64,000 nt of DNA from Eledone cirrhosa (GCA_964016885.1 OZ024743.1:178498001-178562000), one strand, 5' to 3'; positions 46,794 through 64,000 are shown, counted from the stretch's first letter. Numbers and translations: made by a program. The notes: generated from the letters alone by a model not told the origin.

Positions 46794-48378
46794 TAGAATT
46801 GAGATGGAGGGTCTGTGGTTTTTCAGCGTTAGCTATTTTTTATTTATTCTATTCAGTTCTGAGTCCACATGGTAAGGTGTTTTTTTCACAACAATGAGAA
46901 CATCAATAATAATGGCAAAATTTGCAATTAACAAATATAGAATTCTTGAGAAATCTATCGCTGTATCTAAGATATTTCTCGAACGTTTCCTTTCAATATA
47001 AAAACATTTTCTTATATTCTGTAACTCGCCTGACTTTCTGTCTTTCTTCCTTCTCTTTAACGTTCTCTTTTCTCTCTATCTCTCCTTCTTCCCTTTTCTG
47101 TTCTTTCACTGTCTCTCTCTCTCAGTCTCCCTCTCTTTCTCTCTCACCATTTCCTCCTTCTTCCCATGCACACATCCTCGCATAATCATACACATGTAAA
47201 ATATATGCACACCAACATTTAACTCTCGTATTCATATATATATATATATATATGTACTGTGTAGGGGAGGATAAATAGAAAGTGATAAATAAAAAGTATT
47301 ATATAAGAAAAATGCATGTCTAATTCCCAATATAAATACTCCTTGGTCGGTATTTTCATTGATTATTTTTTCTCCATAAACATGTGAGTTCTTGTCAAAC
47401 CATGGACGCCTAAGGAAGAATGGTCTGCGCTTGTACAGTTTTTCGATTCAATTCCCTGCAGGTTCTCATTTTATTTGCTCATTGGTCAACTTACTGACAT
47501 AATTCTTTCTTTCCTTTTTAAATATCGGCTGAAGACACTAGTTCGCCCTCACGGTTAGTAGAACCACACGCTAGATGTGTCCTCATAACATACTGTGGAT
47601 TCTTTAAAATATTTCATGTTTTATCATTTAAACTATGCTACAGTTTTATTGTATTTTATTTAACAGCCATTCTGTATTGATTATTTCTCTCTCATGGTTT
47701 ATTAAAAGTTTTAAAAGTGTTATATCGTTTACTTACTTGTCTAATATACTTGTGATATCTCTACACATATATATATATATATATATATATATATATATAT
47801 ATATATATATATATATTTACATATATATATATATATATATATATATATTTACATATATATATATAAATATATAAATATATATATATATATATATATATAT
47901 ATATATATATATATATATATATATATATATATATATATATATATATATATATATATATAAACGTTTGAATATGTGTAATAAGGCCAAAACAATGGAGGTA
48001 TGGACATAGAAAAAAGAATGCAATAGTAAAAGATATTGTTGAGAATTCGTCTTTCACCTTGAATTTATTTAAATGTCCTTTTTCGAGATAATATCTCTTC
48101 TTCGGAGGGAAATAAAGGTCTCAAACCAGCGTCTTAAATCTCTAGCCAAGCCATGCTGACCGGAAATAGTATAGAGTATCTGTTCTAACTCTAGTATCAA
48201 AGAATTAAAATTAGGTGGATAAAGAGTAGTTTCCCTTTAAGAGGGGTTTGTTTAGGGTTTTTTTGTTTTTTTTTTAAATTTTATATACGTGCCTGTATAT
48301 GTGTGTGGGAGGATGCATGAAGGTGTAGGTATGTGGGTGTGTGTGTGTGAGTGTGGGAAGATAGGTCTAATCGTAAAA

Positions 48379-48537
48379 ATGCCCGGGGAAGGTGGAGAGT
48401 AGAGGCTTGAGGACCTGGGAGAGAAGCCAGGAAATTTTGTATAGGGGTCCTTCTATGCTAGAGACGATGGGTCTTATTTGCGTCTTAGTACTATTCTTGT
48501 GGGTCTTGATGAGGTGGTAGAAAGTGGGCAGTCTTAC
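48379..48537 (-). pseudogene. PLE reverse transcriptase N-terminal fragment (motifs 1-2); absent from the ORF track
   Basis: Manual translation VRLPTFYHLIKTHKNSTKTQIRPIVSSIEGPLYKISWLLSQVLKPLLSTFPGH fits the PLE pattern P.FY.L.K.HK...RPIVS...P...IS..L...L.PL. Confidence 0.85.
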
Positions 48538-48883
48538 ACCTCCACTTATTCTCTCTCACACATACACACACAAAACCAGTTCTAACACCAGATAACACCT
48601 ACCCCCCACTTTTACGATTAGACCTATCTTCCCACACTCACACACAAACACACACATACCTACACTTTCATGCATCCTCCCACACACATATACAGGCACG
48701 TATATAAAATTTAAAGAAAAAAAAGAAAAAAAAAACCTAAACAAACCCCTCTTAAAGGGAGACTACTCTTTATCCACCTAATTTTAATTCTTTGATATTA
48801 TAGTTAGAACAGATACTCTATACTATTTCCGGTCAGCATGGCTTGGCTAGAGATTTAAGACGCTGGTTTGAGACCTTTATTTC

Positions 48884-48918
48884 CCTCCGAAGAAGAGATA
48901 TTATCTCGAAAATTAAGG
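48884..48918 (+). ncRNA. Variant minimal hammerhead motif (U4C)
   Basis: CCT-CCGAAGA-A-GAGAT(ATT)ATCTC-GAAA-AT-TA-AGG. The mirror copy near 48075-48110 has a 3-nt deletion at the cleavage site. Confidence 0.55.
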
Positions 48919-49287
48919 ACATTTAAATAAATTCAAGGTGAAAGACGAATTCTCAACAATATCTTTTACTATTGCATTCTTTTTTCTATGTCCATACCTG
49001 CATTGTTTTGGCCTTATTACACATATTCAAACGTTTATACCTCATTACACAATGCTTCAAGTGAACTATAACCTCCTCCTTATATATATATATATATATA
49101 AATATATATATAAATATATATATATATATATATATAAATATATATATATATATATATATATAAATATATATATATATATATATTTATTAAAATAACAGAT
49201 TAAAGTTTAAGCAAAGACTCGCTGCTTTCACCCTTAACGGGATCTTCTGAAACTTTGGATTTTAGTCTTCAATTTTATTATTATTAC

Positions 49288-50009
49288 TATATATATATAT
49301 ATAAATATATATATATAAATATATATATATATATATATAAATATATATATATAAATATATATATATATATATATTTATATATATTTATATACATATATAT
49401 ATATATATGTATATAAATATATATAAATATATATATATATATATGTATATAAATATATATAAATATATATATATATATATGTATATAAATATATATAAAT
49501 ATATATATATATATATATATATATATATAAATATATATAAATATATATATATATATAAATATATATATATATATATATATATACATATATATATATAAAT
49601 ATATATATATAAATATATATATAAATATATATATAAATATATATATATAAATATATATATAAATATATATATAAATATATATATATATAAATATATGTAT
49701 ATATATATATATATATATATATATAGATATATAAATATATAAATATATATATAAATATATATATATATAAATATATATATATATATATAAATATATATAT
49801 AAATATATAAATATATATATAAATATATATATAAATATATATATAAATATATATATAAATATATAAATATAAATATATATATATAAATATATATATATAT
49901 ATAAATATATATATATATATATATATATATATATATATATATATATATATATATATATATATATATATATATATATATATATATATATATATATATATAT
50001 AAATATATA
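49288..50009. repeat. Interrupted (TA)n array
   Basis: TA runs punctuated mostly by TAAA. Confidence 0.95.
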
Positions 50010-60447: not shown

Positions 60448-60933
60448 TTAAAAATAAAGGTGGTAGAAAAGCCAGGAACCACCATAAAATCCCTGATCAG
60501 CAAAACCTACCCTTTTAAGAAAACCCACTGTACCAATAGGAAATGTATCATATGTAAGGTGAACCCCCGGAAAAACTGTAAAACTAGAAACGTAGTCTAT
60601 AGCATAAGATGTACAGAGGGTACTTGCAGAAACATGACAACAACATACATAGGTGAGACAGCTCGTAGCATAGGTGAAAGGATAGACCAACACTGGGGGG
60701 AACTAAAAGGACGAAAAAACGGGTCAGTACTATACGAACATGCTAGACAACAACATGACGGTAACATAGACAACATAGAAATTAGAATAATATCTAAACA
60801 TAGGAATGACCCAGCAGATAGGCAAATCAGAGAGGCCAGTGAAATAGAAATTAGAAGACCAAAGCTAAACAGAAAGAATGAGTGGAACAACAACAACACC
60901 CAAACAAACAACACTGACCTAAGAGAAGTATAA
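60448..60933 (+). pseudogene. PLE GIY-YIG endonuclease with upstream Cys cluster (different family from element B); truncated but uninterrupted
   Basis: VVEKPG..C....C..C..C..VVYSIRC..C..YIGETARS..R..QH..LYEH...H..RQIREA..LNRKNEW. The ATG at 60280 lies in the inverted terminal segment and is not a native start. Confidence 0.9.
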
Positions 60934-61210
60934 ATAAGTAAATAAATAAAATTAAATAAAATAAAATAAGACAAATAAATACATACACAAGCACATAAAC
61001 ACACACTAGTCACCAGCAGACAACCCACACTATACACACTAGTCACACATCACACATAACACTATACACGCACGCAAACGCATGCGCAAAGAAGACAAAA
61101 TAATATAAGATAAACAAACAAGCAAATAAATAAATATATAGACAGACTGAACAAAAAAAAAAAAATGGCGTAGACATACAACACAACGGGAGGAACAATG
61201 AATAGAACAC

Positions 61211-61248
61211 CACTGACGATGTTGCAGATGTGCAACGAAAGATTTATG
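61211..61248 (+). ncRNA. Minimal type I hammerhead motif (intact core, weak stem I)
   Basis: CA-CTGACGA-T-GTTGCA(GATG)TGCAAC-GAAA-GATT-TA-TG, with a perfect 6-bp stem II. Confidence 0.75.
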
Positions 61249-61462
61249 TAAATTATGTAAACTATATATATGTGTTTGTGTTTATATTGTATCTGTATTA
61301 TTTTTGACCGCCGGTCAGTCAATGGCAACATTGAGGACCGAGTAAGTTAGATCGCAAATATAAAAGACAGCGAGAAACGAAAACCAACCAAACAGTGAGT
61401 GTGTTCTGCTATTAATTCTGGCAATATTACGCAAATATGACCCTCACCAAATATAACAATAT

Positions 61463-64000
61463 ATATATATAAATATATATATATATATGTATATATATAT
61501 ATATATATAAATATATATATAAATATATTATATATAAAATATATATATATATAAATATATATATATATAAATATATATATATATAAATATATATAAATAT
61601 ATATATATATAAATATATATATATATAAATATATATAAATATATATATATATAAAATATATATATATAAAATATATAAAATATATATATATATAAATATG
61701 TATATATATATATATAATATATATATATATAAATATATATATATATATATATATATAAATATATATATATATATAAATATATATATATATATATATAAAT
61801 ATATATATATATAAATATATATATATATATATATAAATATATATATATATAAATATATATATATATATTATATAAAATAATAAATATATATATATATAAA
61901 TATATATATATATATATATATAAATATATATATATATATATATATATATAAATATATATATAATATTATATATATAAATATATATTATATATATATATAT
62001 AAATATATATATATATAAATATATATATATATATATAAATAATATATATATATATATATATATATATATATATAAATATATATATATATAAATATATATA
62101 TAAATATATATATATATATATAAATATATATATATATAAATATATATATATATAAATATATGTATATATATATATATATAAATATATATATATATATATA
62201 AATATATATATATATAATATATATATATATAAATATATGTATATATATATATATATATATATATATATATATATATATATATATATAATATATATATATA
62301 TATATATATATATATATATATTTATATATATATATATATACATATATTATATATATATATATTTATATATATATATATTTATATATAATATATATATTTA
62401 TAATATATATATATATATAAATATATATATACATATATATATATATATATATATATATATATATAAATATATATATACATATATAAATATATATAAATAT
62501 ATATATACATATATAAATATATGTATATATAAATATAGTATATATATATATATATATATTATATATATATATAAATATTGTATATATATATATATATATA
62601 TATATATATTATATATATATATACATATATATATTATATATATATATATATATTGTTATATATATATATATATATAAATATATGTATATATATATATAAA
62701 CATATATATAAACATAAATATATATAAATATATGTATATATATATATATATATAATATATATATATATAAATATATGTATATATATATATATATATAAAT
62801 ATATGTATATATAAATATATGTATATATATATATATATAAATATATGTATATATAAATATATGTATATATATATATATATATATAAATATATGTATATAT
62901 AAATATATGTATATATATATATATATAAATATATGTATATATAAATATATATAAATATATGTATATATAAATATATATATATATATATATATAAATATAT
63001 GTATATATATATATAAATATATATATATATATAAATATATTATATATAAATATATAATATATATATATATATATATAAAAATATATAAATATATATATAT
63101 AAATATATATATATATATAAATATATATATATATATATAAATATATATAATATTATATATATATATATATATAAATATATATATATATATATAAATATAT
63201 ATATATAAATATATATATATAAATATATATATATAAATATATATATATAAATATATATATATATATATATATATAAAATATATATATAAATATTATATAT
63301 AAATATATATATATAAATATATATAATATATATATATATATAAATATATATATATAAATATATATATATAAATATATATATATAAATATATATATTATAT
63401 ATATATATATATATAAATATATATATATATATTATATATATATATATATATATATATATATATATAAATATATATATATATATATAAATATATTTATATA
63501 TATATATATATATATATAAATATATATATATATATATATATATATATATATATATATAAATATATATATATTATATATATATATATATATATATATAAAT
63601 ATATATATATATATATATATATATATATATATTTATATAAATATATATATATATATATTTATATATATATATTTATATAAATATATATATATATATATAT
63701 ATATAAATATATATATATATATATATATATATATATATTTATATAAATATATATATATATATATTTATATATATATATATTTATATAAATATATATATAT
63801 ATATATATATATATATATATAAATAATATATATATATATATATATATATATAAATATATATATATATATATATATAAATATATATATATATGTATATATA
63901 TATATGTATATATATATATATATATATATGTATATATATATATATATATATATATGTATATATAAATATATATATATATATATATATGTATATATATATA
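61463..64000. repeat. More than 2.5 kb of interrupted (TA)n, running off the window end
   Basis: Seen directly. Confidence 0.97.

What the first reader, a model, noticed from the sequence alone, without database searches (positions are those of the whole stretch)
47760..64000. (TA)n field colonised by several Penelope-like families, all as hammerhead-bearing palindromes
Seen: four insertion types (A 47956-49081, triplicated palindrome 50770-54590, B 55485-59795, C 60261-61462), each bounded by (TA)n, each built from divergently oriented copies of the element 3' end, each with a minimal HHR motif. A has an RT fragment; B and C have different GIY-YIG domains. Established: PLEs carry minimal type I HHRs in pseudo-LTRs, can form inverted pseudo-LTRs, and some clades favour microsatellites. 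Inference: these families target (TA)n and routinely integrate as inverted structures, building a nested PLE/TA domain. The families may be undescribed.
Basis: partly seen in the sequence, partly recalled or inferred. Interest (0 to 1): 0.8.

Follow-up and report, generated by a model that had tools for sequence, protein, structure and literature searches.

The report
Head-to-head Penelope-like retroelements in TA repeats
This stretch is a TA-repeat field holding ordinary, known-type Penelope-like jumping genes inserted as head-to-head pairs, and copies elsewhere in the genome almost always pair one long end with one short end, which likely records two separate priming events during insertion.

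Summary
A, T (the triplicated palindrome), B and C are truncated Penelope-like elements (PLEs) with intact-ORF relatives elsewhere in this 3.0-Gb genome. B meets the Hydra-clade motifs. A is Nematis-like. T and C are sister families of one lineage.

Genome-wide, 125 of 135 outer ends lie in (TA)n (background 6.7%), and 57 of 76 loci are head-to-head. TA targeting, inverted copies, tails and hammerheads are all published. The scan noted the same arrangement on another genome.

Added here: 59 of 60 resolved pairs have one long (tail+) and one short (tail-) end. Either arm reaches further 5′ (27 vs 27), and the arms share variants. This argues against fold-back and artefact, and for twin target-primed reverse transcription at two fixed start sites (inferred).

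The T/C lineage has a conserved ~70-aa fingers insertion with a C-terminal endonuclease, not found in the clade paper.

Corrections: elements are side by side, not nested. Hammerheads of A and C are degenerate. Three more elements (D, E, G) were missed. The triplicated unit is 1,555 bp. No read bridged the locus junctions.

The parts
47762..47962 (.). (TA)n tract, left flank of A
47963..48534 (-). A, inverted arm with short (tail-) end: 3' UTR piece (to 48394) joined by an internal deletion to an RT fragment (48379-48534)
48533..49078 (+). A, sense arm with long (tail+, 39 nt more) end; the tail holds an in-frame ATG near the start of the ORF; hammerhead-like motif with core CCGAAGA at 48887 and 3-bp stem I
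49190..49278 (-). G, short head-to-head remnant of another repeated TA-inserted element (36 distinct matches in the fetched loci, the window's own among them)
49279..50011 (.). (TA)n tract
50012..54574 (.). three tandem copies of a ~1,555-bp unit E-(TA)-D-(TA)-T-(TA), 99.2-100% alike; secondary duplication, not verified on reads
50012..50272 (-). E (also 51570-51828, 53117-53377): 3' end of a repeated element, folded back inside a hammerhead-like stem; 1,560 first-look candidates; no ORF tied to it
50449..50766 (-). D (also 52005-52321, 53554-53871): piece of a 467-bp retrozyme-like unit with a canonical type I hammerhead (core CTGATGA at 50710, 7-bp stem I); the second copy has a 1-nt deletion in stem III
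50800..51470 (.). T (also 52355-53025, 53905-54574): palindrome of two 3' ends with a 22-nt filler; both ends long and flanks mirrored, an exception to the long/short rule; hammerhead core at 51057 (-)
54575..55476 (.). (TA)n tract with TAAA interruptions
55477..57869 (-). B (Hydra clade), inverted arm with short end, reaching further 5' than the sense arm; RT thumb/linker/EN frame 57187-57894; hammerhead core at 55572
57867..59791 (+). B, sense arm with long end (78 nt more); 3-nt overlap at the junction; hammerhead core at 59607
59793..60263 (.). (TA)n tract
60264..60447 (-). C, short inverted arm carrying the long end
60447..61462 (+). C, sense arm with GIY-YIG domain (frame to 60933), degenerate hammerhead-like motif near 61212 (2-bp stem I), short end
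61457..64000 (.). long imperfect (TA)n tract; the field continues beyond the window

Best explanation
These are truncated insertions of several Penelope-like retrotransposon families in (TA)n tracts, and each head-to-head pair likely forms by twin target-primed reverse transcription. Shown: each family has intact-ORF copies (RT plus C-terminal GIY-YIG) elsewhere; outer ends fall at fixed positions 39-78 nt apart; a pair has one long and one short end; either arm can reach further 5'; the arms share variants; most joints are blunt or overlap by 1-9 nt. Inferred: the enzyme, probably a dimer, nicks both strands of the symmetric (TA)n target. One 3' end primes at the distal start site and the other at the proximal site, which ends in a TATA or ATAT patch in all four families. 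Both copy transcript of one source element, possibly one RNA molecule, stop independently, and the two cDNA ends are joined by microhomology or a short filler. New ends stay flanked by TA, so the field collects more elements. The triplication and the symmetric T palindrome are later DNA-level duplications (inferred from mirrored flanks).
For: Intact ORFs in single copies: A 788 aa, T 1,167 aa, B 745 aa and C 1,114 aa. The C model (pLDDT 87.5) has telomerase RTs as its top three Foldseek hits. 125 of 135 genome-facing ends lie in (TA)4+ against 6.7% background. 59 of 60 resolved pairs are long/short, 6 more unresolved, from 76 rank-order plus 8 hand-picked loci. Tail-blind queries for T and A gave 25 and 27 classed ends of both kinds (T 14 long, 11 short; A 9 long, 18 short); all 20 resolved rows (17 distinct insertions, 10 of them new) were long/short. 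The short-ended arm reaches further 5' in 27 pairs, the long-ended in 27, equal in 5; a short-ended arm that reaches further cannot be a fold-back copy of its partner, nor the partner of it. Substitutions between arms of one insertion are lower than between insertions: B 0.73 vs 1.91% (22 of 22), A 1.26 vs 2.24% (16 of 18), C 0.73 vs 1.34% (9 of 10). Junctions: 36 of 66 overlap by 1-9 nt, 8 are blunt, 21 have fillers. Short sites end in TATA or ATAT. Both symmetric exceptions have mirrored flanks. Frangieh 2024 (PMC11167929): a Poseidon PLE cuts and extends both strands, starts RT at two sites that bound the tail, and is predicted to be a dimer.
Against: No experiment here. Frangieh saw no difference in start site between strands, so what enforces one-long-one-short is unexplained. 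In 32 of 59 pairs the long arm is longer or equal, which fold-back plus trimming also explains; 9 of 66 junctions have both arms starting within 30 nt. For T, within and between divergence are not distinguishable (0.92 vs 1.06%, 10 of 16). Shared variants could also come from one locus being active at a time or from later gene conversion. Three loci (L161, L162, L185) join arms of different families head-to-head, which a single RNA cannot give. Which arm is longer is biased by query choice (T towards long, C towards short). Loci are best-scoring, young copies, not a random sample. 19 of 76 loci show no same-family partner of 45 nt or more.
Confidence: 0.6

Rival explanations
1. One priming event, then self-priming or fold-back (on cDNA or an antisense transcript) makes the second arm, and the endonuclease trims one end to remove the tail, as proposed by Arkhipova 2013 and suggested for the tail by Craig 2021.
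For: Published model based on palindromes at junctions (PMC3846280). It explains shared variants, the 9 of 66 near-symmetric junctions and the 27 pairs where the long arm is longer. E and G copies fold inside a hairpin stem.
Against: In 27 of 59 pairs the short-ended arm holds 5' sequence its partner lacks while the partner holds the tail, so neither is a copy of the other. 57 of 66 junctions join positions more than 30 nt apart. Tail ends match RT start sites in vitro.
Confidence: 0.2
2. Two independent insertions into the same TA tract in opposite orientation, later fused by deletion of what lay between.
For: TA tracts are hit repeatedly, and three heterologous head-to-head joins exist.
Against: It would give long/long and short/short pairs and unrelated arms; observed 59 of 60 long/short and arms closer to each other than to other copies.
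Confidence: 0.08
3. The palindromes are fold-back reads or assembly artefacts at TA repeats.
For: TA-rich, low-complexity region. No listed read or contig bridged the B or A junction. The 1,555-bp triplication is over 99% identical and unverified.
Against: Arms differ by substitutions (0.9-2.9% in the window), end at different fixed sites and start at unrelated positions. The same architecture recurs at 57 of 76 loci on many contigs.
Confidence: 0.04

Closest known systems
Hydra-clade PLEs (Craig et al. 2021, PMC8557442), e.g. Hydra-1_Obim and Penelope-13_HM
   Same: B has DKT, a CxCX5C linker, CxxC and CxH, no CCHH, a hammerhead, (TA)n targets and an inverted 5'-truncated copy; Penelope-13_HM is listed with (TA)n and an attached inverted copy.
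   Different: B's hammerhead sequence differs from that listed for Hydra-1_Obim; its unit is about 3.8 kb against under 3 kb for most; RWK reads RWR.
Nematis-clade PLEs (Fig. S2 alignment of PMC8557442)
   Same: A, T and C have a C-terminal GIY-YIG with CCHH positions and a short cysteine linker; the T/C spacing C-x4-C-x2-C-x7-C equals that of Nematis_C4 and Nematis_Cr.
   Different: A's linker is C-C-x4-C-x7-C without CxxC. T/C carry a ~70-aa insertion between RT3 and RT4, read DKSG and GAAIG, and do not group with A.
Neptune-clade PLEs
   Same: CX2-5CxxC linker and microsatellite bias; the T/C RT joins two Neptune-like ORFs from this genome at SH-aLRT 95.
   Different: T/C lack the long spacer after CxxC; the tree flags the join as long branches meeting; the Neptune label of those two ORFs rests on linker motifs only.
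Poseidon from Anolis (Frangieh et al. 2024, PMC11167929)
   Same: Two fixed ends bounding a tail inside the ORF start, AT-rich target, hammerhead upstream of the start sites.
   Different: Tails here are 39-78 nt; the parts read and the word search do not link the two start sites to inverted insertions; here short ends have a 4-nt match to the TA target.
Non-LTR retrozymes (bioRxiv 10.64898/2026.07.22.740005)
   Same: D is part of a 467-bp tandem unit with a type I hammerhead in each unit.
   Different: Here a truncated monomer lies in (TA)n, and the search table shows inverted pairs elsewhere; its partner PLE was not identified.
LINE-1 twin priming (recalled, not read here)
   Same: Two target-strand primers on one transcript give an inversion joined by microhomology.
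   Different: In L1 the second primer anneals at variable internal sites and the arms do not overlap; here both start at fixed sites 39-78 nt apart, so the 3' region is copied twice.

Membership tests
EN+ Penelope-like elements (A, T, B, C) | Single ORF with telomerase-related RT and GIY-YIG endonuclease | tested here: met
   ORFs. Pfam RVT_1 and GIY-YIG hit A only, with no Pfam hit for T, B, C. The C model matches TERT structures first. T is a close sister of C. B rests on motifs.
EN+ Penelope-like elements (A, T, B, C) | Pseudo-LTRs from partial tandems, inverted 5'-truncated copy, optional tail | tested here: met
EN+ Penelope-like elements (A, T, B, C) | Hammerhead motif in the pseudo-LTR | tested here: inconclusive
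   Met for T and B; A has core CCGAAGA with a 3-bp stem I, C has a 2-bp stem I. A 2-bp helix I is described for D. virilis.
EN+ Penelope-like elements (A, T, B, C) | Self-cleavage and retrotransposition activity | not testable with these tools
   Needs assays.
Hydra clade (B) | DKT motif; CxCX5C linker; CxxC and CxH near the C terminus; no CCHH; no IFD | tested here: met
   SDKT, CNCRDRSKC, CDLC, CKH and 61 aa between RT3 and RT4 against the definition.
Hydra clade (B) | Insertion into (TA)n | tested here: met
   34 of 37 ends.
Hydra clade (B) | Phylogenetic placement with named Hydra references | not tested
Nematis clade (A) | Short CX2-5CxxC linker plus CCHH | tested here: inconclusive
   CCHH present; the linker is C-C-x4-C-x7-C without CxxC. 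No named anchor in the tree.
Nematis or Neptune clade (T, C) | CX2-5CxxC linker and C-terminal EN with CCHH positions | tested here: met
   CIDKKCITC and CTNRKCIIC; one histidine position reads P in the T copies examined.
Nematis or Neptune clade (T, C) | No insertion in fingers (stated for canonical PLEs in PMC8557442) | tested here: not met
   RT3-RT4 spacing of 128-134 aa in 48 of 48 aligned rows against 58-63 aa in the 108 of 120 A homologues where both motifs were found.
Naiad/Chlamys | N-terminal endonuclease, no canonical hammerhead | tested here: not met
   All four ORFs have a C-terminal EN.
Non-LTR retrozyme (D) | Non-coding tandem unit with a type I hammerhead in consecutive units | tested here: met
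   467-bp tandem units; core CTGATGA in 101 of 101 strings from overlapping loci, mostly one array.
Non-LTR retrozyme (D) | Transcription and circular RNA | not testable with these tools
   No RNA holder was listed in the one run search, which used B sequence.

The most novel reading that the evidence does not exclude
Inverted PLE insertions across at least three deep lineages are made by one asymmetric dimer that primes both strands of a (TA)n target on one RNA, always once at the distal and once at the proximal start site. This would explain the tail and the inverted pseudo-LTR together. In addition, T/C represent an undescribed, widespread PLE clade that combines a telomerase-sized fingers insertion with a C-terminal endonuclease.
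Probability: 0.35. Interest if true: 0.68.

Novelty: new member of a known kind. Interest (0 to 1): 0.42.

Why it matters
The locus itself is ordinary for this genome. The value lies in the genome-wide rule. Craig et al. 2021 name the formation of tandem/inverted structures and the microsatellite bias as open questions of PLE biology, and an in vitro PLE assay now exists (PMC11167929). One long end plus one short end, with independent arm lengths, gives a direct prediction for that assay and separates it from the published self-priming idea. Young families with intact ORFs in three lineages offer test material. If T/C are a separate clade with a fingers insertion and a C-terminal endonuclease, that bears on how PLEs relate to telomerase. 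Dense inverted repeats could also be a large source of double-stranded RNA in this animal (speculation, not tested).

Tried and rejected
Rfam at gathering threshold: 0 hits. At E up to 10 nearly all shown rows were microRNA-type hairpin models on the T palindrome, dismissed as generic hairpin matches.

The repeat finder was swamped by TA and was replaced by masked self-BLAST.

Pfam found nothing for T, B, C or the window's two EN frames. PDB sequence search with A gave nothing better than E 0.011.

Run search with B sequence: 24 runs listed, no RNA holder listed, which is no evidence on expression. Laying 4 runs on the B junction and 4 on the A junction showed the families in those runs but no listed record bridging either junction; the A stretch had no cover beyond 48534, where repeats were skipped. 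Inconclusive.

Idea that arms end at the hammerhead cleavage site: not supported by eye. Cleavage lies 135-282 nt from the long end and most arm starts fall elsewhere; no formal test was run.

The tree is the quick IQ-TREE search, the careful one unfinished, with long-branch warnings and no named references; 7 of 45 chosen homologues were dropped for lack of the anchor motif.

Literature searches for the long/short rule or twin priming in PLEs: 'twin priming' + 'Penelope' gave 3 listings, none on PLE mechanism by title or abstract start; 'Penelope-like, head-to-head, tail, target-primed' gave 0; one search gave the papers cited. For the fingers insertion: one search gave two papers, and GAAIG and GGAIG had 0 occurrences in the Craig supplement text, whose long sequence runs are cut. 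Repbase, Dfam, Arkhipova 2006 and Koyama 2013 were not seen and may already cover both points. The Frangieh supplement was not read.

A complex prediction was not run.
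Full report
Observation. The sequence and a TA-masked self-comparison confirm four insertions with inverted arms between (TA)n tracts, close to the stated coordinates. The region is 35% TA-masked against 6.2% in 20 evenly spaced 10-kb stretches of the genome. The triplicated piece is a unit of about 1,555 bp with three elements, E, D and T; outside the TA run that ends each unit, the copies differ at six aligned positions. A seventh short element, G, lies at 49190-49278. 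No element interrupts another, so the field is a row of insertions, not a nest.

Hammerheads. My pattern scan found 8 motifs in the region (A 1, B 2, T 3, D 2) against a mean of 0.005 in 200 shuffles. T and B fit the format tabulated by Craig et al., and D is canonical. A has the core CCGAAGA in 35 of 36 strings and a 3-bp stem I. C has an intact core but a 2-bp stem I and lies on one arm only. Rfam gave nothing at gathering threshold and HH9 below threshold for D. Minimal hammerheads in PLE repeats, including opposite-strand pairs 100-700 bp apart, are in Cervera and De la Pena 2014 (PMC4209133, passages).

What the elements are. The window is G000:C4:178498001-178562000 in a 3.0-Gb genome. 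The closest named homologues are Octopus proteins (68% for C; 61% over half the query for A), so an octopod host is likely (inference). First-look candidates number 2,308 (A), 1,045 (T), 2,562 (B), 1,153 (C), 1,330 (D) and 1,560 (E); these are not copy numbers. [quoted passage not shown] Mapped on these, every window arm is a 5'-truncated 3' portion; A's RT fragment belongs to its inverted arm, which has an internal deletion. B meets the Hydra definition (section 11): DKT, CxCX5C, CxxC, CxH, no CCHH. A has CCHH and a short, modified linker, closest by eye to Nematis in Fig. S2. T and C are sisters (72% DNA identity; one clade). They have a Nematis-like linker spacing but 128-134 residues between RT3 and RT4 in 48 of 48 aligned relatives, against 58-63 in 108 of 120 A relatives where both motifs were found. 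Craig et al. state that canonical PLEs lack this insertion, apart from sporadic Coprina cases. The C model is confident (pLDDT 87.5) and matches telomerase RTs first; I did not superpose the insertion on the TERT IFD. The quick tree joins T/C to two Neptune-like ORFs of this genome at 95 with a long-branch warning and no named references, so the clade is open. D is part of a 467-bp tandem unit with a hammerhead in each copy, arrayed near C5:87.6 Mb, which fits non-LTR retrozymes (bioRxiv 10.64898/2026.07.22.740005, part 1 of 5 read). E and G are repeated, TA-inserted ends with hammerhead-like sequence and no ORF tied to them.

Targeting and inversion. I fetched 9.5-10 kb around 76 top-ranked matches (20 A, 20 T, 20 B and 16 C of the 40 scored per search, window copies left out) and 8 loci picked for visible tandem or inverted matches. 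In the 76, 125 of 135 genome-facing 3' ends had (TA)4 within 9 nt against 6.7% of control positions, and 57 had a head-to-head junction. Both are also in print: Craig et al. 2021 (PMC8557442; passages, sections 11 and 12, supplement parts 2, 54, 55, 59 and word searches) describe frequent inverted 5'-truncated copies, a tail often at one end only, (TA)n preference in Naiad and Hydra, an octopus Hydra family in (TA)n, and Penelope-13_HM with an attached inverted copy. An O. vulgaris annotation counts 31 recently active PLE families (PMC13282606, passages). The locus is not special: the 200-kb control held 17 hammerhead-like motifs, with T-like and B-like sequence covering 2.7% and 1.9% of it (small sample).

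The long/short rule. Outer ends fall at fixed positions: 0 or 39 nt from the long end in A, 0 or 56 in T, 0 or 78 in B, and 0, 15 or 58 in C. Of 66 junctions, 60 had both ends resolved and 59 paired one long with one short end. The A, T and B queries contained the tail, so I repeated T and A with tail-blind queries. Central ends were of both kinds, and all 20 resolved rows (17 distinct insertions, 10 not counted before) were long/short. Two T-like pairs and one B-like pair resolved in the control stretches agree. The two symmetric cases, L137 and the window's T, have mirrored imperfect flanks, as expected of later DNA-level inverted duplication. The short-ended arm reaches further 5' in 27 pairs, the long-ended in 27, with 5 equal; the split by family is biased by the query. 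In the first 27, and in window A, B and C, each arm holds sequence the other lacks, so neither is a copy of the other. This argues against fold-back and against fold-back artefacts. Arms of one insertion are closer to each other than to other copies in B (22 of 22), A (16 of 18) and C (9 of 10), but not clearly in the younger T (10 of 16). Junctions overlap by 1-9 nt in 36, are blunt in 8, have fillers in 21 and overlap by more in 1. All four short sites end in TATA or ATAT.

Mechanism. Frangieh et al. 2024 (PMC11167929, parts 1-2 of 4 and passages) show that a Poseidon PLE cuts and extends both strands of AT-rich DNA, starts RT at two sites that bound the tail, and is predicted to be a dimer; in what I read they do not link this to inverted insertions. 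Combining that with the counts, I infer twin target-primed reverse transcription: each strand of the TA target primes once, one at each site, on transcript of one source, and the two cDNAs are joined end to end (confidence 0.6). Against it: their assay saw no strand difference in start site; 32 of 59 pairs and the 9 near-symmetric junctions also fit self-priming with trimming (Arkhipova 2013, PMC3846280, passages); shared variants can arise from one active locus or from gene conversion; and three loci join different families head-to-head. The analogy to LINE-1 twin priming is recalled. My searches did not find the rule in print, but subscription papers and Repbase were out of reach.

Artefact check. 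Public runs hold the families, but no listed record bridged the B or A junction, so the locus is unverified on reads. The internal evidence above makes artefact unlikely for A, B and C. The triplication remains unverified, though L069 shows a similar tandem duplication of a T pair.

Verdict. A real and ordinary PLE field made of new members of a known kind. Interest is 0.42, carried by the long/short rule, which makes an open mechanistic question testable, and by the unplaced T/C lineage.

Noticed in passing
L161 6195-8549; L185 3700-8552; L162 978-2240: Head-to-head joins between different families with outer ends in TA: an unrelated family F to A, a full-length B-like element to T (with a 43-nt T-derived filler), and a B-like piece to A. 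Either two different RNAs were joined in one event or sequence between neighbours was deleted.
   Followed up: partly
L212-L231 (200 kb, evenly spaced): 17 hammerhead-like motifs in 200 kb, about one per 12 kb, which would extrapolate to roughly 250,000 in the genome if the sample is representative.
   Followed up: partly
G000:C5 near 87.62-87.69 Mb (L236-L250): Long tandem array of a 467-bp unit with a canonical type I hammerhead in each unit; retrozyme-like.
   Followed up: partly
G000:C4 near 94.67-94.78 Mb (L067, L068, L070, L071): Cluster of tandem full-length T elements with long ORFs and no TA tracts in the four stretches fetched; possibly a source array.
   Followed up: no
L161 6195-6996 and many other loci: Family F: very common short TA-inserted ends with fixed termini 77 nt apart, often as long/short head-to-head pairs (73 matches in fetched loci, some overlapping); a few pairs did not fit cleanly; no ORF identified.
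   Followed up: partly
L035 5783-7033 (+), about 6 kb past the window end: A Neptune-like PLE ORF next to a TA tract; the field continues downstream.
   Followed up: partly
L032, L152, L177, L186, L198, L205, L212, L223 and others: Several further Hydra-like families at 33-50% protein identity to B in the fetched loci.
   Followed up: no
window 7-32717: 30-bp tandem satellite of about 1,088 copies, 82% matches.
   Followed up: no
window 44837-45163 (+): Open frame that resembles an exon of a metabotropic glutamate receptor-type gene (label recalled, not tested); the TA field may lie in or beside that gene.
   Followed up: no
window 33168-46305: Fragments of older dispersed repeats, including an endonuclease-like frame at 33433-34225 (label recalled) and several mutually similar pieces.
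   Followed up: no
T loci L175, L179, L180, L182, L184, L191: T junctions often carry 22-67-nt fillers made of short repeated pieces of nearby element sequence, more often than in A, B or C.
   Followed up: no
L156, L170, L036: In three A insertions with a multimeric arm, both arms stop within 2-9 nt of each other in the upstream repeat, as if both reached the same end of one RNA.
   Followed up: no
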